A DNA stretch of 64,000 bases from assembly GCA_965200965.1 (NCBI GenBank), contig OZ241744.1:736001-800000 (forward strand), in the 5' to 3' direction. Every line of letters starts with the position of its first letter. Position 1 is the first letter of the stretch. The position numbers and the translations under genes are program-made. This document shows, in pieces, positions 8,111-56,713 of this stretch. Under the pieces are notes generated by a model. The model did no database searches and was not told where the DNA came from. It worked only from the letters and a program-made list of their open reading frames with translations. This stretch comes from an uncultured Candidatus Binatia bacterium. Lineage in GTDB: Bacteria; Desulfobacterota; Binatia; Bin18.

Positions 8111-11100
8111 TTAGCAGAGCATATTTTGCAGAAAACGAAAGACTTCTCCCCTGGAAAGTTGGTCGTGACAGAACTGGTTGCGGTAGTTCCGCAGACAGCC
8201 ATAGCAACTCGTATCTCCTGGACCGGCAGGGCCGCCACCGCACCCGCATCGGCCATCTACTCGGTCCCGAGCCGCTTGGAGTACGCCCTCTAAATGCTTG
8301 CCCACCCGGCCGACATGACCTGCGCCTCCCGGGACATTATCAAACAGCACCAAGGCAGGGGCCATATGCCGACCTGCGTATGGATATAAGCAGCCGTCGA
8401 GGTCTTGTCTTCTCACGCTGAGAGCCGCACTCGCGCCCTCCAGAAGGGCGTACAAAAGAGAGAGCCAGAAGTCCTCCTGCTGGATTGTGTCGACTTGAAT
8501 GCGCAGGTCAAGTATGTCCGAGAGAAATTCGTGGCCGAGGTCAGAGAAGGTCAAAGTGCCTGTGCAGTCTCTCCCCCAAGCGGTTTGATGTGAGCCACTA
8601 AACTTGTGGGAGGCGCGGAGAGCAAAGCCACATCGAGAGCAGATTTTGAAGCCTGCCCTATTGACTACGGCTAGCTTGCCGTGACGGGCGTAGGAGCCTT
8701 CAATAAGAACGCCGTTTTTGTTCTCTCGAAAAGTCTTCTCCTCTTGGCTGTCTCCAGCGAAATATACGCGGGAAGAATAGGTCCGCTCTGGACGGGACTC
8801 TCCGGGCGCTTTTGGTTTCTTAGGCTGTGTCTGAAATCCAAACTTGGGCTCGATAAAGATTTTCGGCCTGTCGAGCTCGCCTCTACATGCGCGGCAGCGA
8901 CTCGGTAAACTCTCAGCCTCGGCATGTACACTGTCGTAGCGCCCGCACTCCTGACAGATGGCGTACCGATAGCGGGGCCAAGCTAACTGGGGGAGGCATT
9001 TGAGGCCGTTACTTTTCCACAGCTGCCCTCCAGCGACGACCTCACTCTCCGGGGCATACTCGGCAATGGCGATCCGTAAATCCCGTTGCAGTTCAAGCCT
9101 CCGGGCGGCTTCGCCATGATGCAGAAGTTCCAACTCGACAACATCAACCGGAAAGCCGTACTTGGGCAGGATATTGCGGTTGGCCAAGTATTCGAGCAGA
9201 TGCCGTTCGCGGATCGTGTCGATAGCACGCAAGATATGGTCTGCAGGCTTCTTGGCCGCATTCAGTTCTTGCCGCACGTCTTCAAGGGATGCCACGGTGG
9301 TACGGACTTCCTCCGTTGCAAGGTGTAATCGGCCTTGTGGCTCATCAAAAAGCTCACCGACCCATCCCCAGCCTGTGATATCCAGCGTGTCCTGAAGCTC
9401 GGCTGGCACGATCCAGTGCAAGGCTTCCTGTAGCAGCCGCGGGCGCTGTTCCAGGAAGGTTTGAAACTGTTCAGGACCGGCGGGGTCAGACGGGAAGAAA
9501 AACGCTTTGACATCCCCGAAGAAATTGGGATGTTGCTGAAAGAACATTCCCAGGGCAACAGCATGGGCGTGGCGGCGGATGATTTTCTCATTGCGCAGTT
9601 CAAAATAGGGGGGCCGCACCCGCCCTGAAATTATCCGTTCAGGCTCCTGGAAGTATGTGAGATCATGGGAGCGACGCTGGCAGAAGGTGAGAGAGAACGC
9701 TGTCGCGTCGGCGCGACGGCCGGCTCTTCCTGCTCTTTGGATATAATTGGCTGTTTCTGGCGGAACATTGCGCAGGAGGACAGCCTCAAGCTCTCCAACA
9801 TCCACCCCCAACTCAAAGGTGGTGGAACAGCTCAGGGTATTCACTTCTCCTCGGGTAAATTTGTCCTGCAATGCCGCGGCCGCCTCCCCGGTAAGCTGGG
9901 CGGTATGCTCCTCGACTGTCATGCCTACAGGCGTGAGCCCAAGGTAAAGCTGACGATAGTGGTTGTCTTTGAAGGCAGCGGCGGGCTCGCACGCCTCCAG
10001 CTTCCCATCACAGCCATAGGTCGGGCAGATTTCTCGCAGATTGTGCAGCGATATATTGCCGCACCGCTTGCACCGCCACCAAGGGACACCCGAGTGCGTC
10101 TGATCGATGTTCGGCACGATCTCATAGTAATCATGCCGCAAGCGGTAGACGATTCCTTCAGCTCTCTTGTTGTCTTGGCGGAAGTAATCGGCGAAAGCTG
10201 AGTTTTTATCAACGAGGTTTCTCCATATGCCTGCCAGCGTCTCTGCCTCTTTCGCTACCCCGTTGGCGAGCGTGCGTGAGAGTTTTGTGAGCAGGTCTAA
10301 GCGCCTGTTTTTCTTACCATGCGCGGGTGATCTCCAACTCAGGATATGCTTTCCGCGGACGCTGGTGTTATCCCGGAAGTAATACTCTCGGTTGCGGGGA
10401 GCAAAAGCCTCGTCGGTCGGTTCAACACTAACACTGTCAGGAAAACTTACGGCTCCCTGGAGACGAAAGCTGCTGAGCAAGAGCGCGTACAATTCCCAGG
10501 CTTCGTCAGGCGAGAGTTCCCAGGGGGGCTTCAAGAGAGGAGGCGGGGGGGACCAGACTTGGGGCCGGACAAGGCGAAAGCCCAGGATGCCGAGCCCTTC
10601 AAGGCTATTGCGCCGGTCCAAAGGCAGCAACTCAAGCAAGAGCCATTTCCAGACCTCGTTGATCTTCTGTTGTAGGCTCCAGCGATTTGGGAAGATGCCG
10701 AGTTCCTCGGCAGTCCGACGGGTTGGTTCCGCTAAATCCTGAATCCTCCACTTGTTTGCGACCGCCTCCGGGTGCTGCTTTAGTGTAAGAACAAGCAAGC
10801 GGCGCCGGAGGAGCTGATTGTAGGTACGGTCCAGATAACAGGCAAAGAAAGCCGCGTCCTGGCGGCTGTCGGAGAAGACGAGCAGCTTTTTCCGCTCGTC
10901 TGAAGGGCGAGCCGAAGGTGCGGGGGGTGGCGCGCCCCACTCGTCCTGCTCCTCATTCTGTTCTTCTTTCAGTGGTTCGGGTGCGGATGGAATCTCCTGG
11001 TAAAGCGCTGTGGCAAGCACGCTGGTGGCTGCATCCTGGCCGGTCAGGAAACGCAGAACCAGCCCCGGACTCCTGGTCCCACAGGCAGGGCAGTGATTGA

Positions 11101-12982
11101 CCTGACGGTCCCGGGACGGAACCTTCTGCACTTGCCGGTGCTGGTGTTGGTCCTGAGCACAGCAACACGAGGAATGAAGGCTACCCTTCGGGTCAAGAGC
11201 GCCGCACTTGCCGCACAAGTCAAAGATTTCTTTTTCTTCCTGCCACTCCTCTTCTGCGGCTATGTCTTCATCATCATCCGCGGGCAGGGCAGGGGCAGAT
11301 TTCTCAAGGAGCAGGTAGAACTCAACGTCCTCACGGTTTTCCTCAGAAATTGTCGGAGGATGCCGCAGAACACTTGCAGAAGGGCTTCTCAAATCTGGGG
11401 ATGGGCTTGTCTTCCCAACGAGATACAGGGCACCGCACCGTCGGCAGGATGCCGCTTCAAAAACCCGCCATGCTTCGCCTGCTTGTTCAACGGTTTCTTG
11501 CCGATCTAAAAAAAGGCGAGGCTCGGGCGTCAGGCTCACATAACCCCCTTCCAGGGCTCGCACAAACAGGTGGTAACGGGCTGGAAGAAGCGGGAGGTCC
11601 CCTTTCTGGGCCTTGGCCTGCACCGCAAGGTCAACCAGAGCGACAGCGCTTTCCTGGGCATTGTCGCCCAGAATGTCAGCGGCAATACGGCTGAGAAGAC
11701 AGGGCTTGTCAGTCAGCCTTTCGCGCAGCGTATGGAGGTCCTCATCTCCTCTAAGGACTCGGTAAAGGAAAGCCTGGACTGCTCCCTGCCCGAGTACTTG
11801 CCGGCTCTCATTTTCTGCGTTTTGAAGGATATCCCTTGGGACACCTAAGCGTTTTCCACTTTCCACCATCTTCTTGATTTGAGAGGCAGGAGCCGAGCGG
11901 GCTTTTACTATATGCTGCCAGTCGGTGTAGAGACCAGAATTAGGTTTCCCCCAGCGTAGTCCAAGGTCTTCCACGGGAATCCTGGCTGCTTCAACCACGT
12001 CTTGACATTCAGCGGTGGTTTCTCGCCACTCAAAGCGTTCGCCGAAAAGCTGTGTAGCAAAGCGGGTCACAGCGGGGAAGTCTTCCCGTCCTCCCCCGAG
12101 GGTCGCGCTGGTTGCAATAGCCTGGAGACGGTGCTTCTTGCCTCGCTTGACACGGTCTTTGAGGCGACGGAGGAGCATTGCCATCTCGATACCGACAGCC
12201 CCGTTGTATGTATGCGCCTCGTCCAGGATGAGAAAGCGCCACTCTCCCGCATAGGAACCGTCAAAAAAGTTGCAGTCTTCGGGGCGGAGGAGGAGGTATT
12301 CCAGCATCGCGTAATTTGTCAAAAGCAGGTGGGGAGGTGTCGCCCGCATCTCTTCACGCGACAGCAATTCGTTTGGGATAGGCTCTGTGGCATAGTGGTG
12401 CCGGAAATGCTTTTCTGCTTCTGGCTGGCTTGTTTTCGTCTCCCCCGTGTAGCGGCCAAAGGTGATGTCAGCATAGTTCTGAAGAAGGACGCGGAGCCGC
12501 TTCAGTTGATCGTTGGCCAGGGCGTTCATGGGGTAGAGAAGCAACGCTCGGACACCCGGAGTGAGCTGGCCCGTCTGTTCTTTTTGTCGGAGCAGATAGT
12601 TGAGGATGGGGATGAGGAAGCTCTCTGTCTTGCCGCTCCCGGTACCTGTAGCGACGACAAGGTTGCGCTGGGCGGAAGTGGCTTTTCTGATAGCCTGTTC
12701 CTGGTGAACATAGAGAGGTCGGTCAAGAGGAAGACCTTCGCTCTGGATTTCCCGAAAGCCGGCAGAGAGAACCCCTTCGTCTATCAGGTCATGCAGACTC
12801 CTTGCCTGTTGGAACGGCGGGGTAGCCTCTAAGAAAGGTCCTTTGACGAAATGGTCTTCCTCACTGAGGCGTTGCCGGAACTGATCCGCCAAAGCAGCGT
12901 CGCTGAGGGGAAACGCGGTCGTGAGGTAGTTCAGGTAGGCTTCTTTGATATGCGCTGTTGTCCGCAGTGGGTCAAGTCCCAT
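8111..12982 (-). CDS. Large SF2 DEAH-box helicase with Zn-finger inserts and C-terminal DUF1998 (YprA/DruE-like)
   Basis: LYVHQ, ATGTGSGKTE, YPMNALANDQ, LDEAH, ATSAT, STTFELGVDVG, QRAGRAGRR; several CxxC; terminal LFDNVPGGAG...CGC...SCYGCL..YRNQ..H. Confidence 0.88.
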   Translation of the reverse strand: MGLDPLRTTAHIKEAYLNYLTTAFPLSDAALADQFRQRLSEEDHFVKGPFLEATPPFQQARSLHDLIDEGVLSAGFREIQSEGLPLDRPLYVHQEQAIRKATSAQRNLVVATGTGSGKTESFLIPILNYLLRQKEQTGQLTPGVRALLLYPMNALANDQLKRLRVLLQNYADITFGRYTGETKTSQPEAEKHFRHHYATEPIPNELLSREEMRATPPHLLLTNYAMLEYLLLRPEDCNFFDGSYAGEWRFLILDEAHTYNGAVGIEMAMLLRRLKDRVKRGKKHRLQAIATSATLGGGREDFPAVTRFATQLFGERFEWRETTAECQDVVEAARIPVEDLGLRWGKPNSGLYTDWQHIVKARSAPASQIKKMVESGKRLGVPRDILQNAENESRQVLGQGAVQAFLYRVLRGDEDLHTLRERLTDKPCLLSRIAADILGDNAQESAVALVDLAVQAKAQKGDLPLLPARYHLFVRALEGGYVSLTPEPRLFLDRQETVEQAGEAWRVFEAASCRRCGALYLVGKTSPSPDLRSPSASVLRHPPTISEENREDVEFYLLLEKSAPALPADDDEDIAAEEEWQEEKEIFDLCGKCGALDPKGSLHSSCCCAQDQHQHRQVQKVPSRDRQVNHCPACGTRSPGLVLRFLTGQDAATSVLATALYQEIPSAPEPLKEEQNEEQDEWGAPPPAPSARPSDERKKLLVFSDSRQDAAFFACYLDRTYNQLLRRRLLVLTLKQHPEAVANKWRIQDLAEPTRRTAEELGIFPNRWSLQQKINEVWKWLLLELLPLDRRNSLEGLGILGFRLVRPQVWSPPPPLLKPPWELSPDEAWELYALLLSSFRLQGAVSFPDSVSVEPTDEAFAPRNREYYFRDNTSVRGKHILSWRSPAHGKKNRRLDLLTKLSRTLANGVAKEAETLAGIWRNLVDKNSAFADYFRQDNKRAEGIVYRLRHDYYEIVPNIDQTHSGVPWWRCKRCGNISLHNLREICPTYGCDGKLEACEPAAAFKDNHYRQLYLGLTPVGMTVEEHTAQLTGEAAAALQDKFTRGEVNTLSCSTTFELGVDVGELEAVLLRNVPPETANYIQRAGRAGRRADATAFSLTFCQRRSHDLTYFQEPERIISGRVRPPYFELRNEKIIRRHAHAVALGMFFQQHPNFFGDVKAFFFPSDPAGPEQFQTFLEQRPRLLQEALHWIVPAELQDTLDITGWGWVGELFDEPQGRLHLATEEVRTTVASLEDVRQELNAAKKPADHILRAIDTIRERHLLEYLANRNILPKYGFPVDVVELELLHHGEAARRLELQRDLRIAIAEYAPESEVVAGGQLWKSNGLKCLPQLAWPRYRYAICQECGRYDSVHAEAESLPSRCRACRGELDRPKIFIEPKFGFQTQPKKPKAPGESRPERTYSSRVYFAGDSQEEKTFRENKNGVLIEGSYARHGKLAVVNRAGFKICSRCGFALRASHKFSGSHQTAWGRDCTGTLTFSDLGHEFLSDILDLRIQVDTIQQEDFWLSLLYALLEGASAALSVRRQDLDGCLYPYAGRHMAPALVLFDNVPGGAGHVGRVGKHLEGVLQAARDRVDGRCGCGGGPAGPGDTSCYGCLRNYRNQFCHDQLSRGEVFRFLQNMLC

Positions 12983-13006
12983 ACATACTTTCTTTCTTCT
13001 TCACGG

Positions 13007-16000
13007 TCAGCCAGAGCTCGGCGGCCTAAAGCTCTCCTCCGCCCATTCCAAGTGTCTCCGATATGCCTGCCCGTGTGTCTGGTAGAACCGATGTCCCCAG
13101 GAGTCTATCTTCTCGGCAACAGGCTCAGGGAAACGCAAGCGTCTGTAAGCCCCAGCCCTCTGAAGCGTGGCGGTCAGGCATAAAATTCCGTCTGGAGCCA
13201 AGCGTCTGGGCCGAATTTTTACGACCTCTTTGAGAGAAACAGAGATGGCTACCTTCGCTATTCTCCGCTTAATTTTCTTCTCGCACGACCAACGCAGAAG
13301 TTTTTCCCCTCGCATTGGGACAATTCCTTCAAGTTTCAATAGTCTCTGCTCCTCATAGGCAAGCTCTCCACTGGCTGAGAGAAGACGCTGGAGGAAGCGT
13401 CTGGCTGGCTCAAGGGACTGCCATGTTGCTTTCTCGTAGAGAGCTAAGATTTCCTCTTCCGAGTTGTCCCGCTCTTTTTCATGTCTGCTCAGTAGATCGC
13501 CGCCTTTGTCAGAGAGCAGAAGCTTTTTTAAGGAGGGTTTCCAGGGCTGACCAAGAAATCCCCATCTCGCGTAGAGCCCGGCAAAAAGGCGGAGTATGCT
13601 CTCCCTGTCCGGAGCGTGATGGTCTATGAGAAACCCGGCCAAGTTCTCGGCAAAATCATGCTGCCGCTCTCCGCATTGTTGGAGTATCCGGCGGAAAAGG
13701 GTGTTACTGTCTCCCCAGCTTTCCTCTCTTATGAGTACCGCTTTGCAGAATGTTCTCGCCTGCTCTGACTGAGAGACGAAGGCTTGCACAGTCTGAAAAT
13801 CGAGATCAAGGGCTGAGAGTGCCTCCCCGCTTGTGATCTTGTCAAGCAAAGCTTCCATATGGCGTGCAGGGGAATCGAGAAGGATGCTCTCGCCTTCCCG
13901 TAGCTCAAGGTCGAAGACGCTGCCTCCATAAGGGCTTGGAGGCTCTGAGGGATCTGGGGCAAAGGGGTCACGAACAATCAGTTCCAGGCGGTACAGCCCA
14001 TGAGGGAGGAGGCTTCTTTCAATTTCAGCGTCCGATCTGTTGTCTTCAACCGTCACTTCAACAGGGTCTCTTTGTGGCTCGTCAAGATTCCACACTCGAA
14101 GGGCCCGATTCTTGACCTTTCCCTTGTCATGCCAGTTGAAAGAAAGAGTCCGTCTGTCCTCAGTGAAAATATGTTTGACCTGTATATCCTCAACCCGCCA
14201 CCTGATCTCCACCCGTAGGGAGCAAAGATGCCTTGGACTGTTCTCACCAGGAAGGGTGAGATCGAGATACAAGTCATTCCTGGAAAGACCATTGCCTCCC
14301 AAGCCACCCAGGAAGGGCAAAAGAGGGCAGCCCCCTTTTCCATTTTTCAGTTCAAAAGACTGTCTGTGATCAGCCCCGGCGAGAGACAAGCTGCAAGCAA
14401 TATCCTGGCCGAGGTCTCCTCGTACCAGGAGGGATGCTTCTTGGGCGTCTTGGAGCTCCTGCAAGGTGAGGTTGAGCGGTTGGTCAGACCAGTACAGGGA
14501 GGCGGTCTCGGCCAGCCCGCTCAAGGCCCACCGAAGGCGTGACACCGGCATTTCGAGGGGCACCTCCACGGTTGTTTCACCCGCGTCAAAGCAGAGTTTC
14601 AGGCTGACTTGATCGCTCTCGGCTGGGACATTGACCCGGTAGCAGTTGCGGTTGAACATCCCCTCCGCCGGCGGCTCAACCATGCCTTCCTTCAAGCGGG
14701 CAGACTCCACCGTGAAGGACAGGGGCTGCGAGCCGGTATTCGAGTCTGGGAGGAGTTTCTCTGCCGGGAAGTGAAACTTTACCTCGGGAAGAATGCAAAT
14801 GTGGAAAGTCCTATCCTGACCCAGGCGGCCACGAACCCGGATGATAAAACGTCCACAAGGATTGGGACCGAGCAAATCAGGCTCTTCCAGGGAAAGCCTC
14901 AGGAAACGGTCTTCAGGCTTGGAAGCCGCCAGCGCGTTTTCTAGCGGGACCTCTTTCCTTTCTGCTGGGTATGACCCGCTCATTGGTATGATGGTCAAGT
15001 GGAGGCGTGTCGGGCCTTTTGCGTCGGAGGGCAGGGGAATGAGAAGCCTGGGAGGCGTCCCCAGGTAGACCGCGAATTCTCCGCTGGATACCCGCGGCCA
15101 GGGAAAAGCGCTCTCTGATTCCAAAATCGGTGTCTCTCTCCACTCAACAGGGACCGGGAGCGAGTGGCCTTTCTCGTCTGCTAAAGAAATATATGGCGAT
15201 GGACCTTCGGCAACCCGGAAACGTTTCGCTTGAAACTCCTGAAACTCTGCCTCCTCAATAACCGGAATGGTCGTGGAAATCTCCCAGGACGAACGAAAAA
15301 CAAGCCAGAAGTCCCTCTCGGTAATGTTGTCCAGAAGTCTCCAGGATATGCCGTGGAAAATCATCCAAGGGTGATCTGAACTGACCCCGGAGAAGGTCCA
15401 CACACGAAGGCGCTTGTCCCCGCTGCACAGCGCGAATTCGTACTTTTCTCCCAGTGGACCATCGCGGAATTTGGGCAGCTCACTTGTTTCGATCATCTCC
15501 CCCTTTGGGGTTCCGGGTAGCTGAATAGATGTAAGAAGATTCCCACCCTGCCGGACTTGAAGCGTGAGTCCGCTCCCCTCGCTGAGGGAGCCGGGAGAAA
15601 CTCTTTGGGGTGGGAAAGAAAAAAGAAGACAACCAGTAGCGGGATCCAAGTCAATCTCAGGAGCACGATAACGGGGAAGGTTTGTTTGTCTGTGGGTTGA
15701 GCGGGAGACTGGGGACGCAACTTTCTCCTCCAGCCATTTCGAGAACCTTTCAACAAGCTGTCCAGGCAAGCCGAAATTTTCTCCGCCAGGCACAGAGCCC
15801 GTGGGAGCGTCCATAGCCATGTCTAAACTTCGCTGTAAAAAATCGCTCGCAATTTTTCCCCCATTTTCAAGAAAACGGCGCACCGGGATATCGGTGGCGA
15901 GCGTCTGGGCGGAATGTTTTTGCCACTCGGTGATGAGATGGGCGGAACTGCCATCGTAGTCAAGTTTTCCTTCTACCACCGGCCAGAGCAAATGCTCAAA

Positions 16001-16429
16001 GAAATCAGCGAGACAATAGTCGGGTATCCCGCCATGAATCAGGATGGGAGTAACAAAGCGCAGCCCTCCGCTGCCTTGAAAATCCGCTAACTCAAAATCC
16101 CGGAGGACTGTCTTGAAAATCTCTCCCCATTTTTGGGGCCAAATGTGCTGCGGTAGACCGACCGGCTGACACACCGCTGTCCAGTAGTCTCCTTTGTGGT
16201 AGTCCCGCCCCTTCCAGACGAGAAAACAGGCGAGGGTGCATGAGGCGTGTTCCCGGAGGAATTGGGTTGCCCAGCCCGGGCCAGATGAACGAATCAGAGC
16301 GTGGATTGCCTCCTCTATGTCATTTCCTTGCTCGTCAGACAGAGGGCGCTCTCCGATGAGCGCTACTTCTCGGAACAGCGGACTTAGCTGCCTCTCGAAT
16401 TCAAGAAGGGTACTATGGGACGGGTCCAT
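13007..16429 (-). CDS. Large hypothetical protein, partner of the DUF1998 helicase (DruH-like by size and synteny)
   Basis: 1140-aa ORF with GGAGG RBS, ending 24 bp before the helicase start; N-terminal 'GDYW...RFVTPILIHGGIPDYCLADFF'; Pro/beta-rich middle. Confidence 0.7.
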   Translation of the reverse strand: MDPSHSTLLEFERQLSPLFREVALIGERPLSDEQGNDIEEAIHALIRSSGPGWATQFLREHASCTLACFLVWKGRDYHKGDYWTAVCQPVGLPQHIWPQKWGEIFKTVLRDFELADFQGSGGLRFVTPILIHGGIPDYCLADFFEHLLWPVVEGKLDYDGSSAHLITEWQKHSAQTLATDIPVRRFLENGGKIASDFLQRSLDMAMDAPTGSVPGGENFGLPGQLVERFSKWLEEKVASPVSRSTHRQTNLPRYRAPEIDLDPATGCLLFSFPPQRVSPGSLSEGSGLTLQVRQGGNLLTSIQLPGTPKGEMIETSELPKFRDGPLGEKYEFALCSGDKRLRVWTFSGVSSDHPWMIFHGISWRLLDNITERDFWLVFRSSWEISTTIPVIEEAEFQEFQAKRFRVAEGPSPYISLADEKGHSLPVPVEWRETPILESESAFPWPRVSSGEFAVYLGTPPRLLIPLPSDAKGPTRLHLTIIPMSGSYPAERKEVPLENALAASKPEDRFLRLSLEEPDLLGPNPCGRFIIRVRGRLGQDRTFHICILPEVKFHFPAEKLLPDSNTGSQPLSFTVESARLKEGMVEPPAEGMFNRNCYRVNVPAESDQVSLKLCFDAGETTVEVPLEMPVSRLRWALSGLAETASLYWSDQPLNLTLQELQDAQEASLLVRGDLGQDIACSLSLAGADHRQSFELKNGKGGCPLLPFLGGLGGNGLSRNDLYLDLTLPGENSPRHLCSLRVEIRWRVEDIQVKHIFTEDRRTLSFNWHDKGKVKNRALRVWNLDEPQRDPVEVTVEDNRSDAEIERSLLPHGLYRLELIVRDPFAPDPSEPPSPYGGSVFDLELREGESILLDSPARHMEALLDKITSGEALSALDLDFQTVQAFVSQSEQARTFCKAVLIREESWGDSNTLFRRILQQCGERQHDFAENLAGFLIDHHAPDRESILRLFAGLYARWGFLGQPWKPSLKKLLLSDKGGDLLSRHEKERDNSEEEILALYEKATWQSLEPARRFLQRLLSASGELAYEEQRLLKLEGIVPMRGEKLLRWSCEKKIKRRIAKVAISVSLKEVVKIRPRRLAPDGILCLTATLQRAGAYRRLRFPEPVAEKIDSWGHRFYQTHGQAYRRHLEWAEESFRPPSSG

Positions 16430-16513
16430 AAGCTTCGAGCCTCCTTCGAGATGACAAATGAACGCTCAGCATAACAGGCCATGTTCGCAGGACAAGACGC
16501 CGGGGCCGGAATG

Positions 16514-18147: not shown

Positions 18148-18211
18148 TTTCTTGCTTTTAGCATGGGGGGACGCTAGTATCCAAGCCGCGCTTGGCGCAG
18201 AAGGAGGAGCT

Positions 18212-18991
18212 ATGGCCTACGAATATGTTCTGTATGAAAAAAAGGATCATATTGCGACGATCACCCTGAACCGCCCGGCAGTCATGAATGCGGTCCATCC
18301 GCCGACCACCGCCGAGCTGTCGGGGATTTGGGATGACGCCATTGCCGATGACGATGTGTGGGTGGTTCTGCTGACCGGGGCCGGAGAGCGGGCGTTCTCG
18401 GCCGGCAATGATCTGAAACACACCGCCTCCAAGGGAATGCCGACCGGGCCGCGGCCAACAGGCGGGTTTGGCGGTCTGACCGACCGCACCGATATTGACA
18501 AGCCGCTGATTGCCGCGGTCAACGGCTTTGCCCTCGGCGGCGGCTTTGAGATGGCGCTGGCCTGTGACATCATCATTGCCGCCGACCACGCCCGGCTGGG
18601 GCTGCCCGAGCCGCGGGTGGGGCTGGCCGCGGCCGCGGGCGGCGTTCATCGCCTGCCGCGGCAGATTCCGCTCAAGATAGCCATGGGTTATCTGCTGACC
18701 GGGAAACACATGACCGCTCAGGAGGCCCACGCGCTGGGCATTGTGAATGAGGTCGTGCCGCTCAAAGACCTGATGCCCACCGCCCACCGTTGGGCCGGCG
18801 AAATCCTCGAATGCGCCCCCCTGTCGGTCCGGGCGACCAAACAGTGCGCCATGCAGGGCCTCGGCCGACCGCTCGCTCAAGCCCTGGACGACTCCTATCC
18901 AGCCCTCAAGCAGATGTTCTCCTCGGAAGATGTCAAAGAGGGGCCGCGGGCCTTTGCCGAGAAGCGCAAGCCCAACTGGCAGGCAAGATAG
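18212..18991 (+). CDS. Enoyl-CoA hydratase/isomerase (crotonase family)
   Basis: AFSAGNDL, AAVNGFALGGGFE, LPEPRVG, EGPRAFAEKRKPNW; AGGAGG RBS. Confidence 0.92.
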   Translation: MAYEYVLYEKKDHIATITLNRPAVMNAVHPPTTAELSGIWDDAIADDDVWVVLLTGAGERAFSAGNDLKHTASKGMPTGPRPTGGFGGLTDRTDIDKPLIAAVNGFALGGGFEMALACDIIIAADHARLGLPEPRVGLAAAAGGVHRLPRQIPLKIAMGYLLTGKHMTAQEAHALGIVNEVVPLKDLMPTAHRWAGEILECAPLSVRATKQCAMQGLGRPLAQALDDSYPALKQMFSSEDVKEGPRAFAEKRKPNWQAR

Positions 18992-19056
18992 GCGGCTGCC
19001 AGCCGGGTGGGAGAGGCCCCCCATCCCGATGATGGGCAGGGGAGGAGGCGCTGAGA

Positions 19057-21299: not shown

Positions 21300-24200
21300 C
21301 TACGAACCGGCCTGATTCTGCCGGGCGGCTACCAGCTCGGCGAGGGTGGTGGGGAGGGTCTGGGGGGTGCGGCAGACCAGAAAGGCCCACTCGCCCAAGT
21401 GGCCCCAGTGATTGACCGCGGCTATCCAGCGCTTTGCCGCCTGATGCTTTGCGTCCGTGTCGCTGTACGATCTGCCCTTGATTTCCAAAACGACATGGAC
21501 CTCATTCGTCAGCCGGACGATGAAATCGGGTTCGTACACCCGGCTGCCGTGGAGTTCGTAGGGGATAGTGAACTCCAGGTGTTCGTTGCGGGCATAGCAC
21601 TCGACGAGTCCGTCAAGGGCCAGCTGTTCGATCTGAAACATGGCCGCCTGCTCCCAGGTGTCGGTGTCGCAGGCTACATAGTTCAGATGGCTGGCCCGGG
21701 TAGCCCGGACCGGCTTGACGGTCTTGAAGTGGACCGAGGCGGTGCTGCCGATGGGCCGATAGCGGTTCAGCCGCGGCAGCCGCGGCGCTTCGCCCCTGGC
21801 CTCATCGGGCCGGATGGCGGCCACGAGCAGGCTCACGATGCGCTGGGCGTAGGTCTGGAGTCCTATGTCGCAGGGGTGCAGGCCGTTCAGTTCCACGCGC
21901 TCGCGGATGTAGTCGTGAACGATCCGAAGCGCCTGGGGGAACAGGGCGTGGCGGCTTTCCTGTTGCAGCCCTTCCTTGCCGGGGTGGGCAGTGTTGGTGA
22001 TCAGCCGCACAATTTCTCCGGCGATGATGAAGGCGATAGTCTGGGGGTGGACAGCGGCGTAGTACTGCTGTCGGTCTACTTCCTCAAACCCGAAGCCCCC
22101 GTACATCCCCGGGCTGCCGAACTGGTAGCCGACCTGTGGCCGGACGAAAGCCGCGGTCGGCGTAGTCCACGGGTCGAGCGAGGTCCGCTCCACCGCATCA
22201 AGCTCGCACGCTATGCGATCCCTGTTCAGGACCGCGACATAGCCCTCGACAATCGGAAACCTGATCTCAAAGCGCTGGCGCTCGGGCAGGGCCGTGACCT
22301 CGTGCTTGGGCCGGTCTTCCGGCCGCGGGCCGTGGCCCGGCTGGCGGCCTTTGAACGGAATGAGCGAGAAGGGCACACCGAAAATATCAACATACTCGGC
22401 GGTCAGATGCCCGGTCTTGGGGTCGGGCGTGTAGTCCATGCGGCGCAGCCCCCGGCCAATGACCTGCTCGCACAGCAGTTGGCTGTGGAAGGCACGCAAG
22501 CCCAGGATATGGGTGACGTTGTTGGCGTCCCAGCCCTCGCTCAGCATGTTGACGCTGACCACGCAGCGGATGCCTCCCCCGGGCGTACCCGGAACGCCTA
22601 TGCTTGCGACGGTCTTGCGCAGTTCCTCCGCGGCATCTTTGCGGCTGGCGGTGAGGTCCTGGCTTTCGGCCGCGGCCAGCAGCCTGGAGTCAATCCGCAA
22701 GGTGACTTGTGCGCCGGACTGGTTCCACAGCTCGGGAAAACCGCCGAGGCCGGCGCTGTAGCGCTTTGTCGTCTGCTTCCGGCTACTCTTGGGCCGGCTG
22801 TCGTCGTCCAGCGTGTCCCCGTCCGCCGCTTCTTCGCCCGAGATCATCTTGTGAAGATGCTCGGCAATGTCGGTGTTGTCGCACACGACAATCAGTACCG
22901 GCGGGGTCTGCTCCTGGCCCGGGGTGGCGGCCTGGAGTTGATTGAATCGCTCTTTCCACTGGCCGGCCAGGGTGAGCAGGGCGTCTTCGGCCCGCCGCCA
23001 AGCGGCATCGGGCTTTGGCTTGCCGCCCGGCAGCCGCTCGCCCGGCCCGAGGCTGCGGGTCACATGCTCCCATAGCTTGAAGTACACCGGGTCGGGCCGG
23101 CCGGTACTGTCCATCGCCGGCAGCCGCGGAATTTTGGTGATGCCCGATTCAATGGCGTCTACCAGACTGAAATCGCTGACGATCCACGGGAAGGGCGAGC
23201 CCGCGGGGTAGCCGCTGCCCTGGAGATAGAAGGGCGTTGCCGACAGGTCTACGCACAGGCCGATGCCGCAGGCGGCGTTGAGCCTGTCCAGGCCGCTGAC
23301 CCAGACGGTGGCTTCCTCGCGGTCGGTTTTTTCCTCCGCGGACAGCCTGGCGGTGACGGGCGCGGGCCGATAGGCGTGGTGGCCCTCGTCGTTCAGGACC
23401 AGCAGCGGCTCGTCGTCCCACAGCGCGCCGAGGCGGGCTCGGGCAAAGGCTTCGGGCGTCTCTTCTCCCAGCCGGCCGACCGTCACCCCGCCCACCCGCA
23501 CGGCCTCGGACTCTGGGCTGAGCCGGTGCCAGTTCGTGACCAGCACCTTGCCCTTGGCCAGCTCGGGCCGCAGCGCGGACGGAACCAGGTCGAAGCGGTC
23601 ATAATAGTTGCCCGGCTCGTCGGGCCGCAGCACCCTCAGGCGCTCTTTGATCGTCAGGTTGGGGCATAGGACCAGGGTCCGACAGGGATAGGCCGGCTCG
23701 TTCGGCTGCCGGCCCCGGTTGCAGAAGGCCCAGGCGATGAGCATGGCCATGACCACGGTTTTGCCGGAGCCGGTGGCCATTTTGCAGGCGTAGCGCGGGA
23801 TGGGCCGCAAGCCCGGAGCGTTGGGCAGGTCGGTCAGTTTTGGATGCTGGGCAACCTGCGCCACCCATTCCTGGGGCCGGGGGTTCTGGCCGGCCTCCAG
23901 CAATCTGAAGTCATCCAGACCGAGCCGAGGCCGCCAGCGCAGGTTCTTGCCCATCGCCAGGATTTCGCGGAGGTAGATGACGGTCTCAACCGCCTCCAAC
24001 TGGCAGAAGAACAGCCGTCGGGGGCGGTCTTCGCGCCACCAGTGGCGGAGCAGGCTGCGGGTAGTTTCTGAGGCATGGGGCCACTTGGCTTGTCGCCATC
24101 GACGCACATCGTCCCGCAGCGCGTTGACCAGCGGCAGGTCGTCCCGTTCTTCTTCGGCCAGCAGGGAGAGTTGGGCGCTGCCGGTGCGCTCGGTCTTGTA

Positions 24201-24344
24201 CCAGTAGCTCGCCTCCCGGCGGGCCCGGACCTTTGCCGGCTGGCCAGTGCGGGTGTCGTAGCGCCAGTGCTGGTCAGGCTCTGCGTAGGGGGAGCACAGG
24301 ATGGGGTCTTCGACCGGCTGAATGGGAATCTGGCTTTCCGGCAT
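21300..24344 (-). CDS. res: Type III restriction enzyme, Res subunit
   Basis: KMATGSGKT, NDEGHHAY, DLSATP, SEGWDA, QVIGRGLRR; C-terminal PD-(D/E)xK 'YEPDFIV...LEIKG'. Confidence 0.88.
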   Translation of the reverse strand: MPESQIPIQPVEDPILCSPYAEPDQHWRYDTRTGQPAKVRARREASYWYKTERTGSAQLSLLAEEERDDLPLVNALRDDVRRWRQAKWPHASETTRSLLRHWWREDRPRRLFFCQLEAVETVIYLREILAMGKNLRWRPRLGLDDFRLLEAGQNPRPQEWVAQVAQHPKLTDLPNAPGLRPIPRYACKMATGSGKTVVMAMLIAWAFCNRGRQPNEPAYPCRTLVLCPNLTIKERLRVLRPDEPGNYYDRFDLVPSALRPELAKGKVLVTNWHRLSPESEAVRVGGVTVGRLGEETPEAFARARLGALWDDEPLLVLNDEGHHAYRPAPVTARLSAEEKTDREEATVWVSGLDRLNAACGIGLCVDLSATPFYLQGSGYPAGSPFPWIVSDFSLVDAIESGITKIPRLPAMDSTGRPDPVYFKLWEHVTRSLGPGERLPGGKPKPDAAWRRAEDALLTLAGQWKERFNQLQAATPGQEQTPPVLIVVCDNTDIAEHLHKMISGEEAADGDTLDDDSRPKSSRKQTTKRYSAGLGGFPELWNQSGAQVTLRIDSRLLAAAESQDLTASRKDAAEELRKTVASIGVPGTPGGGIRCVVSVNMLSEGWDANNVTHILGLRAFHSQLLCEQVIGRGLRRMDYTPDPKTGHLTAEYVDIFGVPFSLIPFKGRQPGHGPRPEDRPKHEVTALPERQRFEIRFPIVEGYVAVLNRDRIACELDAVERTSLDPWTTPTAAFVRPQVGYQFGSPGMYGGFGFEEVDRQQYYAAVHPQTIAFIIAGEIVRLITNTAHPGKEGLQQESRHALFPQALRIVHDYIRERVELNGLHPCDIGLQTYAQRIVSLLVAAIRPDEARGEAPRLPRLNRYRPIGSTASVHFKTVKPVRATRASHLNYVACDTDTWEQAAMFQIEQLALDGLVECYARNEHLEFTIPYELHGSRVYEPDFIVRLTNEVHVVLEIKGRSYSDTDAKHQAAKRWIAAVNHWGHLGEWAFLVCRTPQTLPTTLAELVAARQNQAGS

Positions 24345-24347
24345 GGC

Positions 24348-24914
24348 TTAATACTCTTGAAGGCGTTCTGCAATTCGATCCCGCAAGTCCTGTAGCTCGG
24401 GGCACAATTGAAACAGAAGCGGCAGGTTTTGAAGCGTTGCTTCAACCATCCGGTCCCTGCCGCCGCCCGCTCGTCGGGGGTCGCCGTGCTTTTGGAGCAG
24501 GGGTTGAAAAATCTCTTCCTTCATCCGCGGATGGGCGCATACATCATCCCAGCGTTCCGGGATGTCGTTGCGAAACGCCGCGCACGCATATATTTCCACT
24601 TCCGGTTGCGCGGGGCAGCACAGCAAGCCTATACCTTGCACGGCCCTCTTTTCCTCCAAACTCCGCGTGGTATCGTCTTTGGCTTTGTCGGCGTCGGGGA
24701 AGAACAGCCACAGGTCCATGTGGCGGTACCGTTCGGCAAGATTGGTGCGAATGGCCCTCACGGCTTGGTCATAGCCGCGCAGCCTCGGATTGGCCAGCAC
24801 GGTCACCTTGGCTGCCGGCTTGCCGGCGGCCGCCACAATGGCCTTGGTCAGGGGCTTCAGGATGTAACCGTTCAGGGTTGGATCTTCTGGAATGACCAGC
24901 ACTCTGAAACTCAT
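24348..24914 (-). CDS. Hypothetical protein with TOPRIM-like acidic motifs (DUF4276/RloB-like ATPase partner)
   Basis: VLVIPED near the N-terminus, FFPDAD (DxD), PEVEIY; ATGA-coupled to the upstream ATPase. Confidence 0.55.
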   Translation of the reverse strand: MSFRVLVIPEDPTLNGYILKPLTKAIVAAAGKPAAKVTVLANPRLRGYDQAVRAIRTNLAERYRHMDLWLFFPDADKAKDDTTRSLEEKRAVQGIGLLCCPAQPEVEIYACAAFRNDIPERWDDVCAHPRMKEEIFQPLLQKHGDPRRAGGGRDRMVEATLQNLPLLFQLCPELQDLRDRIAERLQEY

Positions 24915-26170
24915 GCTGTAGTTTCCAGCCAGCCTTCTGCAAACAGTTCGGAAACGGGCGTCTTTTGGGCGGCGGCGTGGAAGTGGGGCACCTTGGCCAG
25001 GGCGCGGATGCGTGATTTGCTGGTGGCTTCGTCCCGCTGGCAGAAGAAGGTCGTTTGGTACTCCTCTTCCTGGAGCCAGTCCAACACGGTCGCCGAGTGG
25101 GTGGTTGCCACGACCTGTGTCCGCGTGGCTTTGGCCTGACTCCGCAGCAGTTCCAGCAGAAGTTGCAGACGGCTGGCATGAATGCCGTTTTCAACTTCCT
25201 CAATCGTCAGCAGGTAGGGCCTGTCGGGCTGGAAGAAGGCCGCGGCCAGGGCGGCGAAACGCAAGGTGCCGTCGCTCAGGACCGGCGCGGGAAACCTGTG
25301 GCCACCCTCCTGAAGCATGAACATGGGTTCGCCGAGTGCGCCGTCCAGGGTTCCCACATCGTCTATCTCTTCGGGGCGGAGCAGGCCTAGCCACGACAGA
25401 TAGGCGTCCTTGGTTGATTTGTTCTGGCAGATCGTTTTGACCAGGGCGGCGAAGTTCTCCCCACGCTCGCCCATGCGTTGGATGGAAAGTGCTTGAGAGT
25501 AGTCCCGGAGAATCCCAGGAAGCGGATCAAGCCCCTGCATGTTTGCTAAAGCCTGTGATACTTCATATGCGAGATTGGCGTGTCCATCCTCTGGCCCTTT
25601 TGCACCACCCGCGGCGAACTGTGTCAGCACGGGGCGTGAACTCTCGAACTTCAGGCGAGGCGGCCTTCCTCGCTGCTGTTTGTAATACCGCACATCCAGG
25701 GTAGGGCCACTTTGGGAAACCTCACCAGAGTCATACAGCTTTTTTCTGACATGGAGATTTTCGCGTGTCACCTTCCCCTCCTCCGGCGAGAAAGCAATCA
25801 GAAATTGCCACGGGCAAGGTGTTCTTCTGCGAATTGGGAACTTCCCGGGCTTGTATCTGCCCATACGGCTGCCGCTCGCAAAACTGCCTTTGACGGTAAT
25901 CCGTACCTCTCCGCTGTCCGAACCGGTATAAAGAGTCTTCAGTTTTCCCCCGCGGATGCCTTCCCAGACCTCATTGGTGGCGCTTCTGGGCTTGCCGTCA
26001 AGAATTTCGCTGATGGTGAAGCCGCTGCCTATACCCTGGAGCACCCGCAGTACATCCAGAAAGTTGGATTTGCCGCTGGCATTGGTGCCGATGAACAGGT
26101 TGACCTCTCCCAGGTCCAGGTCCACCTTGTGCAGGCTTTTGAAGTTTTCGATGATGAGGTGGGTAATCAT
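24911..26170 (-). CDS. ABC-type (AAA_15/AAA_21) ATPase
   Basis: IENFKS, Walker A GTNASGKSN, signature LSDGT, Walker B/D-loop IEEVENGIH, H-loop TTHS. Confidence 0.85.
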   Translation of the reverse strand: MITHLIIENFKSLHKVDLDLGEVNLFIGTNASGKSNFLDVLRVLQGIGSGFTISEILDGKPRSATNEVWEGIRGGKLKTLYTGSDSGEVRITVKGSFASGSRMGRYKPGKFPIRRRTPCPWQFLIAFSPEEGKVTRENLHVRKKLYDSGEVSQSGPTLDVRYYKQQRGRPPRLKFESSRPVLTQFAAGGAKGPEDGHANLAYEVSQALANMQGLDPLPGILRDYSQALSIQRMGERGENFAALVKTICQNKSTKDAYLSWLGLLRPEEIDDVGTLDGALGEPMFMLQEGGHRFPAPVLSDGTLRFAALAAAFFQPDRPYLLTIEEVENGIHASRLQLLLELLRSQAKATRTQVVATTHSATVLDWLQEEEYQTTFFCQRDEATSKSRIRALAKVPHFHAAAQKTPVSELFAEGWLETTA

Positions 26171-29100
26171 GGGGTGGCTGCTGTGACGCTGAGGACGCGC
26201 AGACCCTCGTTGCCGCGGGGGTCGATCATTTTGACGGCGATGCGCCACGGTGCGCCGGCTGGCAAGCGGGCGGGGCGGGGGAAGGGCAGGCTGGTCAGGC
26301 CGCTGAGGGCGTCAAAGGCGGTGCGATCAATGACGCCGGCGTCACCAAGGGCGCGGGCGAGGCGGTCCCACTTGGTCTTGTCGGGAAAGAATGCCTGGCA
26401 GATGCAGAAGGTCCGCCCGTCATAGTCGGTGTCCAGAAACCAGGCGGCGATGCGCTGCCGGTCGGTCGGGAAGAGGGTGTTGCTGACCGGGTCGTAGACA
26501 TCCATGCCTTCGACTTCGACGGTGTAGTTGCCGTCCGACTGGCGGGCCGGGCCAGTGACCCGGGGTGCGCTGAAGACGGCGAAGAGTTGGCTGCCGGGCT
26601 GGGTTTTGAGCAGGTCGCCCATTGCCACATCGGGGCGGATCAGGGCCATGTGCAGCCGCAGGCGGGGGTGGCCGGCGGCTTCGATCGCCTCTTGGGCCGC
26701 GGCATCAAAGCCGAAGCCGGCAAACACCAGCTCATCATAACCGGTCCGGTTGGCGTCGCGGACCGCCTCTTCGACCTGCATGGCGGTGATGTTGCCGACC
26801 TCGGGGCCGATGCTGACGGCAACCCGCGGGTCTGCCTGTCCGTCGCCCTCCTCTCGCTCTGATGACCCGTTCTCGAGCCAGCCGCCTTCGGCGTGCAGCA
26901 GGGCCGGGCCGGCCAGCGGTTCAAGGCGGTCGAACTGCATGGTCGCGTTGCCCGGAAAGTCTACGCCGGCGGCCCTGAGCAGGCGGATGACCCTATCGAT
27001 ATGGGCTTCGGCGTTGGCAACGGCCCCGGTGTTGTCAAACGCCTCTAACTCCTCATCAGACTCCGCATCAGAGGCCGGCATATCCAGGCCGTCTTCAAGC
27101 GCGATCACGCCCTCCATTGTGAACGGGCCGGCCACGCGCAGCGTACTCTTGACGAGCTCCGGCTTGTCCACCAACTCTTCTGAGGCGGCGTTGGCGGCAA
27201 TGCAAGCGTTCACCTCGTCCATCTTGGCCCGCCAAGCCGCCCGGTAGGCGGTCAGGGCGGCTTGGAGCGGCTGCGGCCAGTCGGGGTCAGCATCAAACGG
27301 GACCTGCCATGCCTGCCAAGTCTGGCCCGGAATCTTGGCCCGGTAGTTTTCGACCTGGCGGGCGGTCAGGCCCTTGAGCGGTTTGCGGGCCGGGGCGGTC
27401 TTGAGCCAGCCGGGATGTGTGCCGGGCAGCAGCCAGCGGCGCAACTCGGCGTCGGTGACGGCGTTGGCCCCCTGCTCGCGGTGCTTGGCGATGAGTTTGG
27501 CCGCCAGGCTGGCCTTCAGCTCATCGCCGACCGTGGCAAGCGCATGGTTCAGGTCGGCCAGCCTGGCGGCCAGGATGGGGTCATGCTTGGCAAAGATAGG
27601 GTCAAGCGAGGTATTGCGGGCAATGCTGCGCAGGGTGATATGGGGCACGGTTTTGCACTGGAAGGTCAGCGGCTTGCCGCTCCGGTCCCCATCCGTGCCG
27701 GCGATCCAGGTTCCGCGCGGGTTGCGCTCCAGGTCTTCGGCGTTCAGTTCGCGCAAGCGGTAATAATCGAACTTGGCCGTCATCAGCCGGTGCTTGGCCA
27801 GGGCCAGGGCTACCCGGCTGGTATCAATCGTAATCCAGCGTCGGCCCCACTGCTCAGCCACATAGGCCGTTGTGCCGCTGCCGCAGGTCGGGTCCAGCAC
27901 CAAATCCCCCGGGTCCGTCGTCATCAGCATACACCGCTTTACTACTTCTGCCCCCGTCTGAGTCGTGTATATCTTCGGATCATTGCGACTCTGTACCCCG
28001 CCCGTTACATCGTTCCAGAAATTCGTTAGCGCCCAAGCTCCGAAATCGTCAAAATATTTCTTGAAACGAATGGTATCGCCAGCGGGTAAGACTCGTTCAC
28101 AGCCTAAGAGCCGTCTCATTCCATCTTCGCTTGTTCGCCATCCGCCGGCCGTTGGCGACCACATTTTGCCCTGATACGGCACTTGAAAGAGCGTGGTTGC
28201 ACTTCCACTACGCGAGGTCAGTCCTTGATCTGTGAAGAAGCGCCAGTCGCTCTCCGGTAGTTGATCCACATTATCGCTCCTTACGGAATTGATGTTTCTG
28301 ACTTCCCCGTTGGCTTTCGATTCCGCCTTCCGGTAGCGTGTGGCTCCCTCCTCGCCAATGTCCAACTCAGCGTTCAGTTGTCTATAACGTCGGGCCGCCT
28401 TTTCCTTGTCGCGGGCAAACCAAATCAGGTAGTTGCAGACGGAATCAATAAATTCACCGCTGAGGCCAATTGATGTCCGATAGGTGATCTCGGCGATGAA
28501 GTTCTGCGGCTGAAATAGCTCTTCCAGAATCATTCTGACATAGTGACGGTTGTCTTCTCCGATCTGGACGAAGATGCTGCCGGTGTCGGTGAGCAGTTCG
28601 CGGGCCATTGCCAGCCGGTCGCGCAAATAGGCCAGGTAGGAATGGATGCCGAGGGTCCAGGTGTCGCGGTAGGCTTTGACCATCTCCGGCTCGCGGGTGA
28701 GGTCTTGCTGGCGGTCTTTGACATCGCGCTGGCCGAGCTGGGGCTGAAAGTTGGAGGCAAAGCGGATGCCGTAGGGGGGGTCGAGGTAGATCATCTGGAC
28801 CTTGCCGGCCAAGTCTTCACGGCGGGCCAAGCTGGCCATGACCTGAAGCGAGTCGCCCAGGATCATGCGGTTGGCCCAGTCTACATTGTGGCGGTAGAAC
28901 TGCACGGCCTGGGCGTAGTCGTGCTGGGGGTCGGCGAACAGCTCGCGCTGTACATCCTGGCGGGCCAGCGCCCGCAAAATCGCTTGGGTGGATACCCGCT
29001 CGTGCATGTGCAGGGCCACCGGCTCGACCTCAAACCAGGGGCGTTCGCGCTTGCCGCTCCACTCCAGCCAGGGTTCGTGGCGTTTGAGGGCCCGGGCCAG

Positions 29101-29358: not shown

Positions 29359-29582
29359 AGTGCGGGGTAGCCTCACGCTGCTTTCACTGCCCGTTGATCC
29401 GTCTCCATTTGGGAGCACGCCAGTGCGCCAGCCAGCTTCAAGCAGGAGCAGTCCGCCACCTGGGAGGGAGGGAACATAGGTGTGTCCCGTGGGGGTGCGC
29501 TCACCAGAACACTAAGCACAGGCCCAGGTGCAAGTAAAGAAGACAGGCCGGTCGCCCCTGTCGGCGGTCGGCTTCACTCGCC

Positions 29583-47797: not shown

Positions 47798-47959
47798 TAT
47801 GCTCTTCCTGTTGGTGAAGAGGGACGACGCCGAGCGGCACGCGGCAGCATCAACTCCACTATCCCGGTTCCAACAAGGGGCGGGCATGGAGACTGAGGCC
47901 AAGCGGGCCGACTGTGTCGCCTCACTCGGTGGGTCGGTGCCGGCGTTATGGGCCGGCGA

Positions 47960-56670: not shown

Positions 56671-56713
56671 GCGGACTTTTTGCAGTGTGGCGAGACAGTT
56701 TGTCACAATTGTC

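What the first reader, a model, noticed from the sequence alone, without database searches (positions are those of the whole stretch)
8111..16429. Stand-alone two-gene defence candidate: 1140-aa unknown protein plus nuclease-less DUF1998 helicase
Seen: two co-oriented giant ORFs 24 bp apart, visibly less GC-rich than their flanks and inserted among metabolic genes. The helicase ends right after the DUF1998 Cys cluster with no PLD or REase tail, and no methylase is adjacent. Known: DUF1998/YprA-like helicases are core to Druantia, DISARM and Dpd, and Druantia III is DruE plus a large DruH. Inference: a divergent Druantia-III-like or new YprA-family anti-phage system. Its effector or sensor would be the unannotated protein, which has a motif-like N-terminal 'HGGIP..CL.DFF' region and probable beta-sandwich repeats.
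Basis: partly seen in the sequence, partly recalled or inferred. Interest (0 to 1): 0.75.

Follow-up and report, generated by a model that had tools for sequence, protein, structure and literature searches.

The report
Nuclease-less Druantia III-B defence pair
The two giant genes encode a DNA-unwinding enzyme with no cutting domain and a very diverged partner that standard defence-gene models miss, and together they are likely an ordinary member of an already named anti-phage system (Druantia type III-B), notable mainly because relatives of the partner carry many different tail domains.

Summary
Observation confirmed. The 1140-aa and 1623-aa genes are co-oriented, 24 bp apart and GC-poor. The helicase ends 27 residues after its DUF1998 cysteine cluster. 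It is DruE-like (PADLOC E 1e-121 to 1e-190, without the PLD part). The partner misses all Pfam, PADLOC and NCBIfam models, but it is a remote DruH homologue: profile-profile probability 96%, collinear over residues 29-821, HGGIP matching DruH EGGLP, controls under 1%. Its model shows DruH's plan of helical N-domain, tandem Ig-like sandwiches and C-domain. The pairing holds in 69 of 72 evaluable metagenome loci. A PLD-less DruE plus DruH is the published subtype Druantia III-B, and a PLD-less pair from M. smegmatis protects against phage. So this is not a new system. Two extras. Congeners keep deleted druE remnants at this site, so it is an old cassette being lost. Across the family the DruH tail differs by clade (sigma-70, HEAT, WD40, unknown folds), and the window's tail is unrelated to the E. 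coli one. The scan has already found III-B pairs and tail swaps on other DNA.

The parts
13007..16429 (-). druH-like gene, 1140 aa; remote homologue of DruH/YjiT
   Evidence: ORF; hhalign against the E. coli DruH family, probability 96%, E 4e-9; AF2 model; ESM Atlas YjiT_N clusters
15719..16429 (-). Predicted helical N-terminal domain of the DruH-like protein (residues 1-237), holding HGGIP (residues 132-136, window 16022-16036), aligned to EGGLP of E. coli DruH
13880..15667 (-). Predicted tandem Ig-like beta-sandwiches (residues about 255-850); with the N-domain, the conserved core of the family
   Evidence: DSSP; Foldseek hits dominated by tandem Ig/FN3/macroglobulin-type proteins at low TM-score; homologue match ranges end near residue 845
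13007..13870 (-). Clade-specific C-terminal module (residues 854-1140): predicted helical bundle plus small sheet, no known family; not detectably related to the E. coli DruH C-domain; replaced by HEAT repeats in close relatives
8111..12982 (-). druE-like YprA-family SF2 helicase, 1623 aa, without PLD or Vsr tail
   Evidence: PADLOC, Pfam, PDB sequence hits 9tu7 and 9wae, tree
12626..12646 (-). Walker A GTGSGKT (residues 113-119). DEAH is at 254-257 (window 12212-12223) and motif VI QRAGRAGR at 1082-1089 (window 9716-9739); all intact
8192..8452 (-). MZB/DUF1998 domain with Cys 1579, 1581, 1593 and 1596; the protein stops 27 residues after the last Cys
16440..16446 (-). Shine-Dalgarno-like AAGGAGG before druH
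   Evidence: read directly

Best explanation
The locus encodes a DruE-like helicase without a nuclease tail and a remote DruH homologue, and is likely a Druantia type III-B anti-phage system in which the helicase would load on single-stranded or forked phage DNA and unwind it while DruH would act as sensor or loader. Shown here: gene pair, intact helicase and zinc motifs, absence of a PLD tail, homology of the partner to DruH over its first ~820 residues, and conserved gene order. Inferred from characterised relatives: ATP-driven 3'-to-5' unwinding of exposed ssDNA or fork intermediates that blocks phage DNA circularisation or replication, with both genes required. Any cutting would have to come from DruH or from host nucleases. 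Inferred and weakest: the variable DruH tail tunes what is sensed or how DruE is engaged.
For: Helicase: DruE models E 1e-121 to 1e-190, and the DruE3 match stops at profile position ~1675 of 2055. Its end aligns to residue 1715 of E. coli DruE, close to the DruE 1-1723 truncation that still unwound DNA and restored defence (10.64898/2026.05.13.724758, section 7). In a 29-row FastTree the window lies in a 14-row clade that is sister to E. coli DruE3 (SH 99) and apart from ARMADA-type helicases. Partner: hhalign probability 96%, E 4e-9 to 8e-9, 698-714 collinear columns; one reversed and eight block-shuffled controls all under 1%; a second profile built from 48 metagenome partners gave 96.3%. 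The predicted helical N-domain, tandem Ig-like domains and C-domain match the cryo-EM description of DruH. Pairing: of 11 partner-positive genome loci, 10 have the helicase directly downstream and one is cut by a contig end. From the helicase side, 58 of 72 evaluable metagenome loci pass a strict rule, and 69 of 72 after overlapping ORFs and a second-round profile. Tails after the zinc domain: 50 of 59 are 40 aa or less, 9 are 41-250 aa, none longer, which fits the description of the III-like branch. Distribution is patchy: 3 of 60 relatives match, one strongly. The M. smegmatis pair (1132 + 1667 aa, no canonical nuclease domain) protects against phage (PMC13316683).
Against: No phage assay exists for this pair. 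No DruH model of PADLOC or NCBIfam hits the partner or 35 aligned homologues, and single-sequence or profile-to-sequence comparisons with E. coli DruH fail. The best PADLOC score is DruE1, not DruE3, and the tree held no DruE1, DruE2 or DruE4 rows and no published III-B reference. In P. aeruginosa the PLD nuclease residues are needed for defence (10.64898/2026.05.13.724313), so a PLD-less form may work differently. The E. coli DruH C-domain, which holds the ssDNA/ATP pocket residues and in P. aeruginosa the DruE contact, has no detectable counterpart in the window's tail. The invariant E75 and the Y670/N672 residues of E. coli DruH align to other residues (read). The immediate neighbours are metabolic genes, not a defence island.
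Confidence: 0.85

Rival explanations
1. The pair is a distinct Druantia subtype that deserves its own name: the DruH core is only a scaffold, and exchangeable tails (sigma-70, RNA polymerase alpha-CTD repeats, HEAT, WD40, PIN) act as decoys or sensors for phage proteins and replace DNA-structure sensing.
For: About 1000 clusters at 50% identity share the core (999 at E<=1e-3). Among 150 listed, 132 have tails of 100 aa or more, in at least 7 clusters plus singletons, most of them unrelated by hhalign. Eleven carry the sigma-70 region-2 motif, and Pfam finds sigma-70 regions 2-3 in 9 of 34 scanned, with regions 1.2 to 4 complete in 7. Eleven share an N-terminal extension cluster, and the 7 of these that were scanned carry alpha-CTD. 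Nine HEAT-tailed proteins, 48-52% identical to the window core, nest inside the window's own clade. A phage minor tail protein activates the M. smegmatis system.
Against: Tails are mostly clade-specific: 20 changes for 9 labels on 178 rows, minimum 8, shuffled mean 111. That is slow diversification rather than rapid swapping. The window's own tail has no recognisable sensor fold. Sigma-70-like proteins are already known in defence (MzaA). No function was tested.
Confidence: 0.2
2. The pair is a non-defensive DNA repair or recombination module (MrfA/YprA-like helicase plus scaffold).
For: DUF1998 helicases include repair enzymes. M. smegmatis SftH can replace DruE. The site is flanked by metabolic genes.
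Against: The helicase is much closer to DruE (PDB E 2e-77) than to YprA/MrfA (E 1e-15). Distribution is patchy with low GC and deletion in congeners. Several related loci sit beside PglX-like methylases or other defence genes. The partner is a DruH homologue.
Confidence: 0.04
3. The helicase belongs to Druantia type I/II/IV or ARMADA and has lost its other genes, with the partner unrelated.
For: DruE1 is the top PADLOC model.
Against: No other dru, arm or methylase gene is adjacent; the partner is DruH-like; the pairing is conserved in 69 of 72 loci; ARMADA-type helicases fall outside the clade.
Confidence: 0.05

Closest known systems
Druantia type III-B (named in 10.1101/2025.09.15.676423; described as DruH plus a compact DruE lacking PLDs in 10.64898/2026.05.13.724758)
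   Same: Two genes, druH then druE; DruE without PLD domains; most relatives have no nuclease tail and a minority a 100-150-aa tail.
   Different: The window's DruH has a clade-specific C-terminal module of unknown fold.
M. smegmatis DruH-DruE (MSMEG_1253/MSMEG_1254; PMC13316683)
   Same: Sizes 1132 + 1667 aa against 1140 + 1623; same order; DEAD + Helicase_C + DUF1998; no canonical nuclease domain. Read by eye from the supplement, a DruH peptide ends in a KPVR motif like the family's DKPVxRF, and a primer encodes the family's zinc-cluster consensus.
   Different: By the paper's numbering its DruE runs about 107 aa further past the zinc cluster. The sequences could not be fetched, so homology is indirect.
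Druantia type III-A (E. coli ATCC 8739/EDL933, P. aeruginosa; PDB 9tu7, 9tud)
   Same: Helicase 25-29% identical over two long stretches; DruH homologous over the N-domain and Ig-like region; same gene order.
   Different: III-A DruE has two PLD domains (about 390 aa more). Its DruH C-domain is unrelated to the window's tail. III-A is found by PADLOC DruH3 and NF038336; the window's protein is not.
ARMADA, DISARM, Dpd (other YprA-family systems)
   Same: Share the SF2 + DUF1998 helicase core.
   Different: They need SNF2 helicase, methylase or modification genes that are not adjacent here; DrmA and DpdJ scores are far below cut-off.

Membership tests
Druantia type III | Large YprA-family SF2 helicase DruE with DUF1998/MZB and intact motifs | tested here: met
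Druantia type III | Only one partner gene, directly upstream and co-oriented | tested here: met
   (69 of 72 evaluable metagenome loci)
Druantia type III | Partner homologous to DruH/YjiT (helical N-domain plus tandem Ig-like domains) | tested here: met
   hhalign 96% with controls under 1%; model; Atlas lead
Druantia type III | Partner passes curated DruH models (PADLOC DruH3, NF038336) | tested here: not met
   positive control E. coli DruH passes. This is a detection gap for the branch and lowers only the claim 'canonical III-A DruH'.
Druantia type III-A | Two C-terminal PLD domains on DruE | tested here: not met
   protein ends 27 aa after C1596
Druantia type III-A | DruH C-domain with the ssDNA/ATP pocket | tested here: not met
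   tail versus E. coli C-domain, hhalign probability 0.8%; sequence-profile test only, no structural superposition
Druantia type III-B | Compact DruE lacking PLDs, paired only with DruH | tested here: met
   definition
Druantia type III-B | Helicase falls in the published III-B branch | tested here: inconclusive
   own clade sister to E. coli DruE3, but neither the published III-B reference nor DruE1/2/4 was in the tree
Druantia type III-B | Direct sequence homology to the tested M. smegmatis pair | tested here: inconclusive
   sequence not obtained; only size, domain list and short-motif agreement
Druantia (any) | Anti-phage activity needing both genes | not testable with these tools
   needs a phage challenge
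ARMADA | BrxHII-like SNF2 helicase and PglX-like methylase in the operon; Vsr tail on the helicase | tested here: not met
   neighbours are SDRs and a symporter; no tail; outside the ArmC clade
DISARM / Dpd | Split DrmA+DrmB with methylase, or DpdJ with a dpd cluster | tested here: not met
   single fused helicase; DpdJ 81.6 bits against a cut-off of 800, DrmA 18 against 999; judged on the flanking genes scanned
Druantia types I, II, IV | Additional dru genes beside druE | tested here: not met
   only the DruH-like gene lies in the low-GC block

The most novel reading that the evidence does not exclude
DruH of the III-B branch is a modular immune receptor: a conserved helical-plus-Ig core that loads the helicase, carrying exchangeable bait domains. 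Among these are whole sigma-70 factors and RNA polymerase alpha-CTD repeats that act as integrated decoys for phage transcription-takeover proteins. The window's tail is one such bait, of an undescribed fold, replaced by HEAT repeats in its nearest relatives.
Probability: 0.2. Interest if true: 0.7.

Novelty: new member of a known kind. Interest (0 to 1): 0.3.

Why it matters
As a system it is already named, so interest is modest. It still matters in three ways. (1) The PADLOC and NCBIfam models tested miss the whole DruH branch (about 1000 clusters at 50% identity), so Druantia III-B is likely under-counted. (2) It is a natural nuclease-less version, which bears on an open disagreement between 2026 preprints on whether DruE's PLD nuclease is needed and on what DruH does. 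(3) The domain that binds ssDNA/ATP and DruE in III-A is replaced here, and differs by clade across the family, which offers ready natural variants for testing DruH's role.

Tried and rejected
Pfam, PADLOC, NCBIfam and PDB sequence searches on the partner found nothing. BLASTP and profile-versus-single-sequence comparisons with E. coli DruH failed; only profile-profile worked. Foldseek of the whole model gave tandem Ig/FN3/macroglobulin-type proteins at TM <= 0.14 and no DruH row. DruH 9tud is in the PDB sequence copy but did not appear in the fold library's list, so no structural superposition was made. For the tail alone, Foldseek gave no hit at E <= 1e-3, VIA-align best Z was 6.9 to generic helical repeats and the Atlas gave no usable hit. 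Weak CarD and viral endonuclease rows were not accepted. The wide VIA-align search of the whole model never ran. The complex prediction of DruE 725-1010 with DruH 432-1138 gave no verdict (runs 0.00, 0.43, 0.00). The M. smegmatis sequences could not be obtained, and a residue fingerprint found no match among metagenome partners (best 4 of 11). No flanking repeats, promoter or terminator stood out, and no integrase was among the flanking genes scanned. The IQ-TREE run timed out, so only FastTree was used. 'Recent insertion' was rejected because congeners keep druE remnants. Literature searches for sigma-factor or decoy fusions of DruH found no such description (and term searches). bioRxiv supplements, notably Supplementary Table S2 of 10.1101/2025.09.15.676423, were not seen and may already list these fusions.
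Full report
Observation. The window holds two long minus-strand ORFs, 13007-16429 (1140 aa) and 8111-12982 (1623 aa), 24 bp apart. Their GC is 0.547 and 0.567 against 0.63-0.66 for eight other window genes, and the block is among the lowest 1.6% of 436 genome bins. The flanks are SDR oxidoreductases and a dicarboxylate symporter. A type III R-M cassette begins about 5 kb upstream.

The helicase. Pfam gives DEAD, Helicase_C and MZB/DUF1998. Walker A (113-119), DEAH (254-257), motif VI (1082-1089), several CxxC pairs and the zinc cluster C1579-C1596 are intact, and the protein ends at 1623. PADLOC DruE models score E 1e-121 to 1e-190. DruE1 ranks first and DruE3 second, and the DruE3 match stops at position ~1675 of 2055. 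DpdJ and DrmA are far below cut-off. The closest solved structures are two DruE-sized helicases (9tu7, E 2e-77; 9wae, E 2e-45), well ahead of YprA. Against E. coli ATCC 8739 DruE the end of the protein aligns to residue 1715. A FastTree of 29 helicases places the window in a 14-row clade, sister to E. coli DruE3 plus one row (SH 99), apart from ArmC and methylase-linked helicases. The tree warned of long branches and held no DruE1, DruE2, DruE4 or published III-B sequence.

The partner. It has no hit in Pfam, PADLOC, NCBIfam or PDB sequences, and direct comparison with E. coli DruH fails. It is not an orphan: 999 clusters match at E <= 1e-3, most of the 150 listed over residues ~5-845. AlphaFold2 with 89 homologues (mean pLDDT 91) gives a helical N-domain, a run of beta-sandwiches and a mostly helical C-domain. 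That is the plan reported for DruH by cryo-EM (10.64898/2026.05.12.722862, passages and section 9; 10.64898/2026.05.13.724313, passages). A profile of this family against a profile of 32 of 43 E. coli DruH homologues aligns collinearly over residues 29-821 and 35-822, probability 96%, E 4e-9 to 8e-9, with HGGIP on EGGLP. One reversed and eight block-shuffled controls scored under 1%. A profile built from 48 metagenome partners gave 96.3%. The ESM Atlas independently pointed to YjiT_N clusters, as a lead only. So the partner is a remote DruH, and the curated models, which do find E. coli DruH, miss this branch.

Pairing and spread. Of 11 partner-positive genome loci, 10 have the helicase directly downstream and one is cut by a contig end; a Nostoc plasmid locus has a weak partner hit with a short ORF in between, and a Clostridium plasmid locus has a 1069-aa upstream gene with only a marginal match. 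From the helicase side, of the best 80 metagenome loci 72 had over 1.5 kb upstream. Of these, 58 have a family member immediately upstream, and 69 after counting overlapping ORFs and a second-round profile; L105, L134 and L136 stay negative. Of 59 complete helicases, 50 end within 40 aa of the zinc domain, 9 have 41-250 aa and none has a PLD-sized tail. The system is patchy: 3 of 60 relatives match the partner, one strongly; 7 of 301 genomes around L001 match it; and 17 of 400 genomes of the window's phylum have any helicase match at E <= 1e-40.

History of the site. In 5 of 5 same-genus genomes examined, the SDR and symporter genes are 0.4-1.7 kb apart. G007 keeps two pieces of druE (window 10330-9134 at 86.5%, and the 3' end) and G004 keeps the last ~300 bp at 70%. 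The others carry a GNAT gene, a small toxin-antitoxin-like pair (judged by eye) or an unrelated ORF. The cassette was therefore acquired before these species split and has been deleted in some: a variable site, not a fresh insertion.

What is known. Type III is split into III-A and III-B, and III-B has DruH and a compact DruE lacking PLDs (10.64898/2026.05.13.724758, passages). The YprA survey describes a III-like branch that most often has no nuclease domain (10.1101/2025.09.15.676423, passages and sections 5-6). In E. coli, DruE 1-1723 without PLDs still unwinds DNA and defends (section 7), whereas in P. aeruginosa PLD residues are required and DruH is reported as an exonuclease. Another preprint sees DruH as a likely protein sensor with weak to dimer-dependent nuclease activity (10.64898/2026.05.12.724681, passages). 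The M. smegmatis pair, 1132 + 1667 aa with no canonical nuclease domain, protects against mycobacteriophages, blocks circularisation and is activated by a tail protein (PMC13316683: abstract, results part 1 of 3, discussion, supplement part 1 of 3). I could not fetch its sequences, so the link rests on size, domain list and short motifs read by eye.

Mechanism. Most likely DruE loads on ssDNA or forked phage DNA and unwinds it 3' to 5' with ATP, and DruH senses or loads. This is inferred from the relatives above and untested here. Two features argue that details differ from III-A. There is no PLD nuclease. And the DruH C-domain, which in III-A carries the ssDNA/ATP pocket and the DruE contact, is replaced by an unrelated module with no clear fold match.

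The variable tail. Among 150 listed homologues, 132 have tails of 100 aa or more, in at least seven clusters plus singletons, most pairs unrelated by hhalign. They include sigma-70 factors, HEAT and WD40 repeats, while N-terminal additions include alpha-CTD repeats with sigma region 4, a coiled-coil insert and a PIN domain. On a 178-row core tree the tails are mostly clade-specific (20 changes for 9 labels, minimum 8, shuffled mean 111), but nine HEAT-tailed proteins nest inside the window's own clade, which shows one recent replacement. A decoy or sensor role is an inference. My searches found no description of these fusions, but bioRxiv supplements were not seen. Sigma-70-like MzaA is already a known defence component. 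Earlier notes of this scan report III-B pairs and a tail swap in other genomes.

Verdict. A new member of Druantia III-B (confidence about 0.85), real and well formed but not a new system. Interest 0.3. The modular-bait reading of DruH has probability about 0.2 and would deserve about 0.7.

Noticed in passing
window 21300-29418 (-): Type III R-M cassette (mod 26167-29418, res 21300-24344) with an AAA ATPase (best PADLOC PDC-M07A, E 2e-65) and a 188-aa gene of no known family inserted between mod and res; locally lower GC.
   Followed up: partly
L037 (G007) and L038 (G004): Deleted druE remnants at the orthologous SDR-symporter site; other congeners carry GNAT, a small toxin-antitoxin-like pair or an unrelated ORF there.
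   Followed up: yes
L032:6982-13543 (G004): A second, distant pair in a congener: 778-aa DruH-like protein with an N-terminal PIN domain (Pfam E 4e-5) before a 1410-aa DruE-like helicase, so a nuclease may ride on the partner.
   Followed up: partly
L001:5930-9970 (Ktedonosporobacter rubrisoli): DruH-like protein ending in an RpoD-like sigma-70 module (NCBIfam E 4e-91), next to a divergent SNF2-like helicase gene.
   Followed up: partly
P0026, P0068, P0072, P0077 and related: DruH-like proteins with a ~500-aa coiled-coil insert, with a hydrophobic stretch, inside the N-domain, and Cys/His-bearing tails.
   Followed up: no
L029, L030, L042/L043: DruH-E pairs directly after PglX-like methylase genes, or in one island with an ARMADA-like helicase-methylase locus.
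   Followed up: partly
L016:4161-14357 (Nostoc linckia plasmid): 2122-aa DruE-like helicase with a ~390-aa tail, preceded by a 307-aa ORF and a 967-aa weakly DruH-like ORF; possibly a split partner.
   Followed up: no
L088, L094, L097, L098, L110, L115: Helicase ORFs with long apparent N-terminal extensions or overlapping partner ORFs; start choice or frameshifts were not resolved.
   Followed up: no
window 54079-56706, 46139-47902, 31436-32896, 18158-19024: ORFs of 875, 587, 486 and 288 aa with no NCBIfam hit at 1e-8.
   Followed up: no
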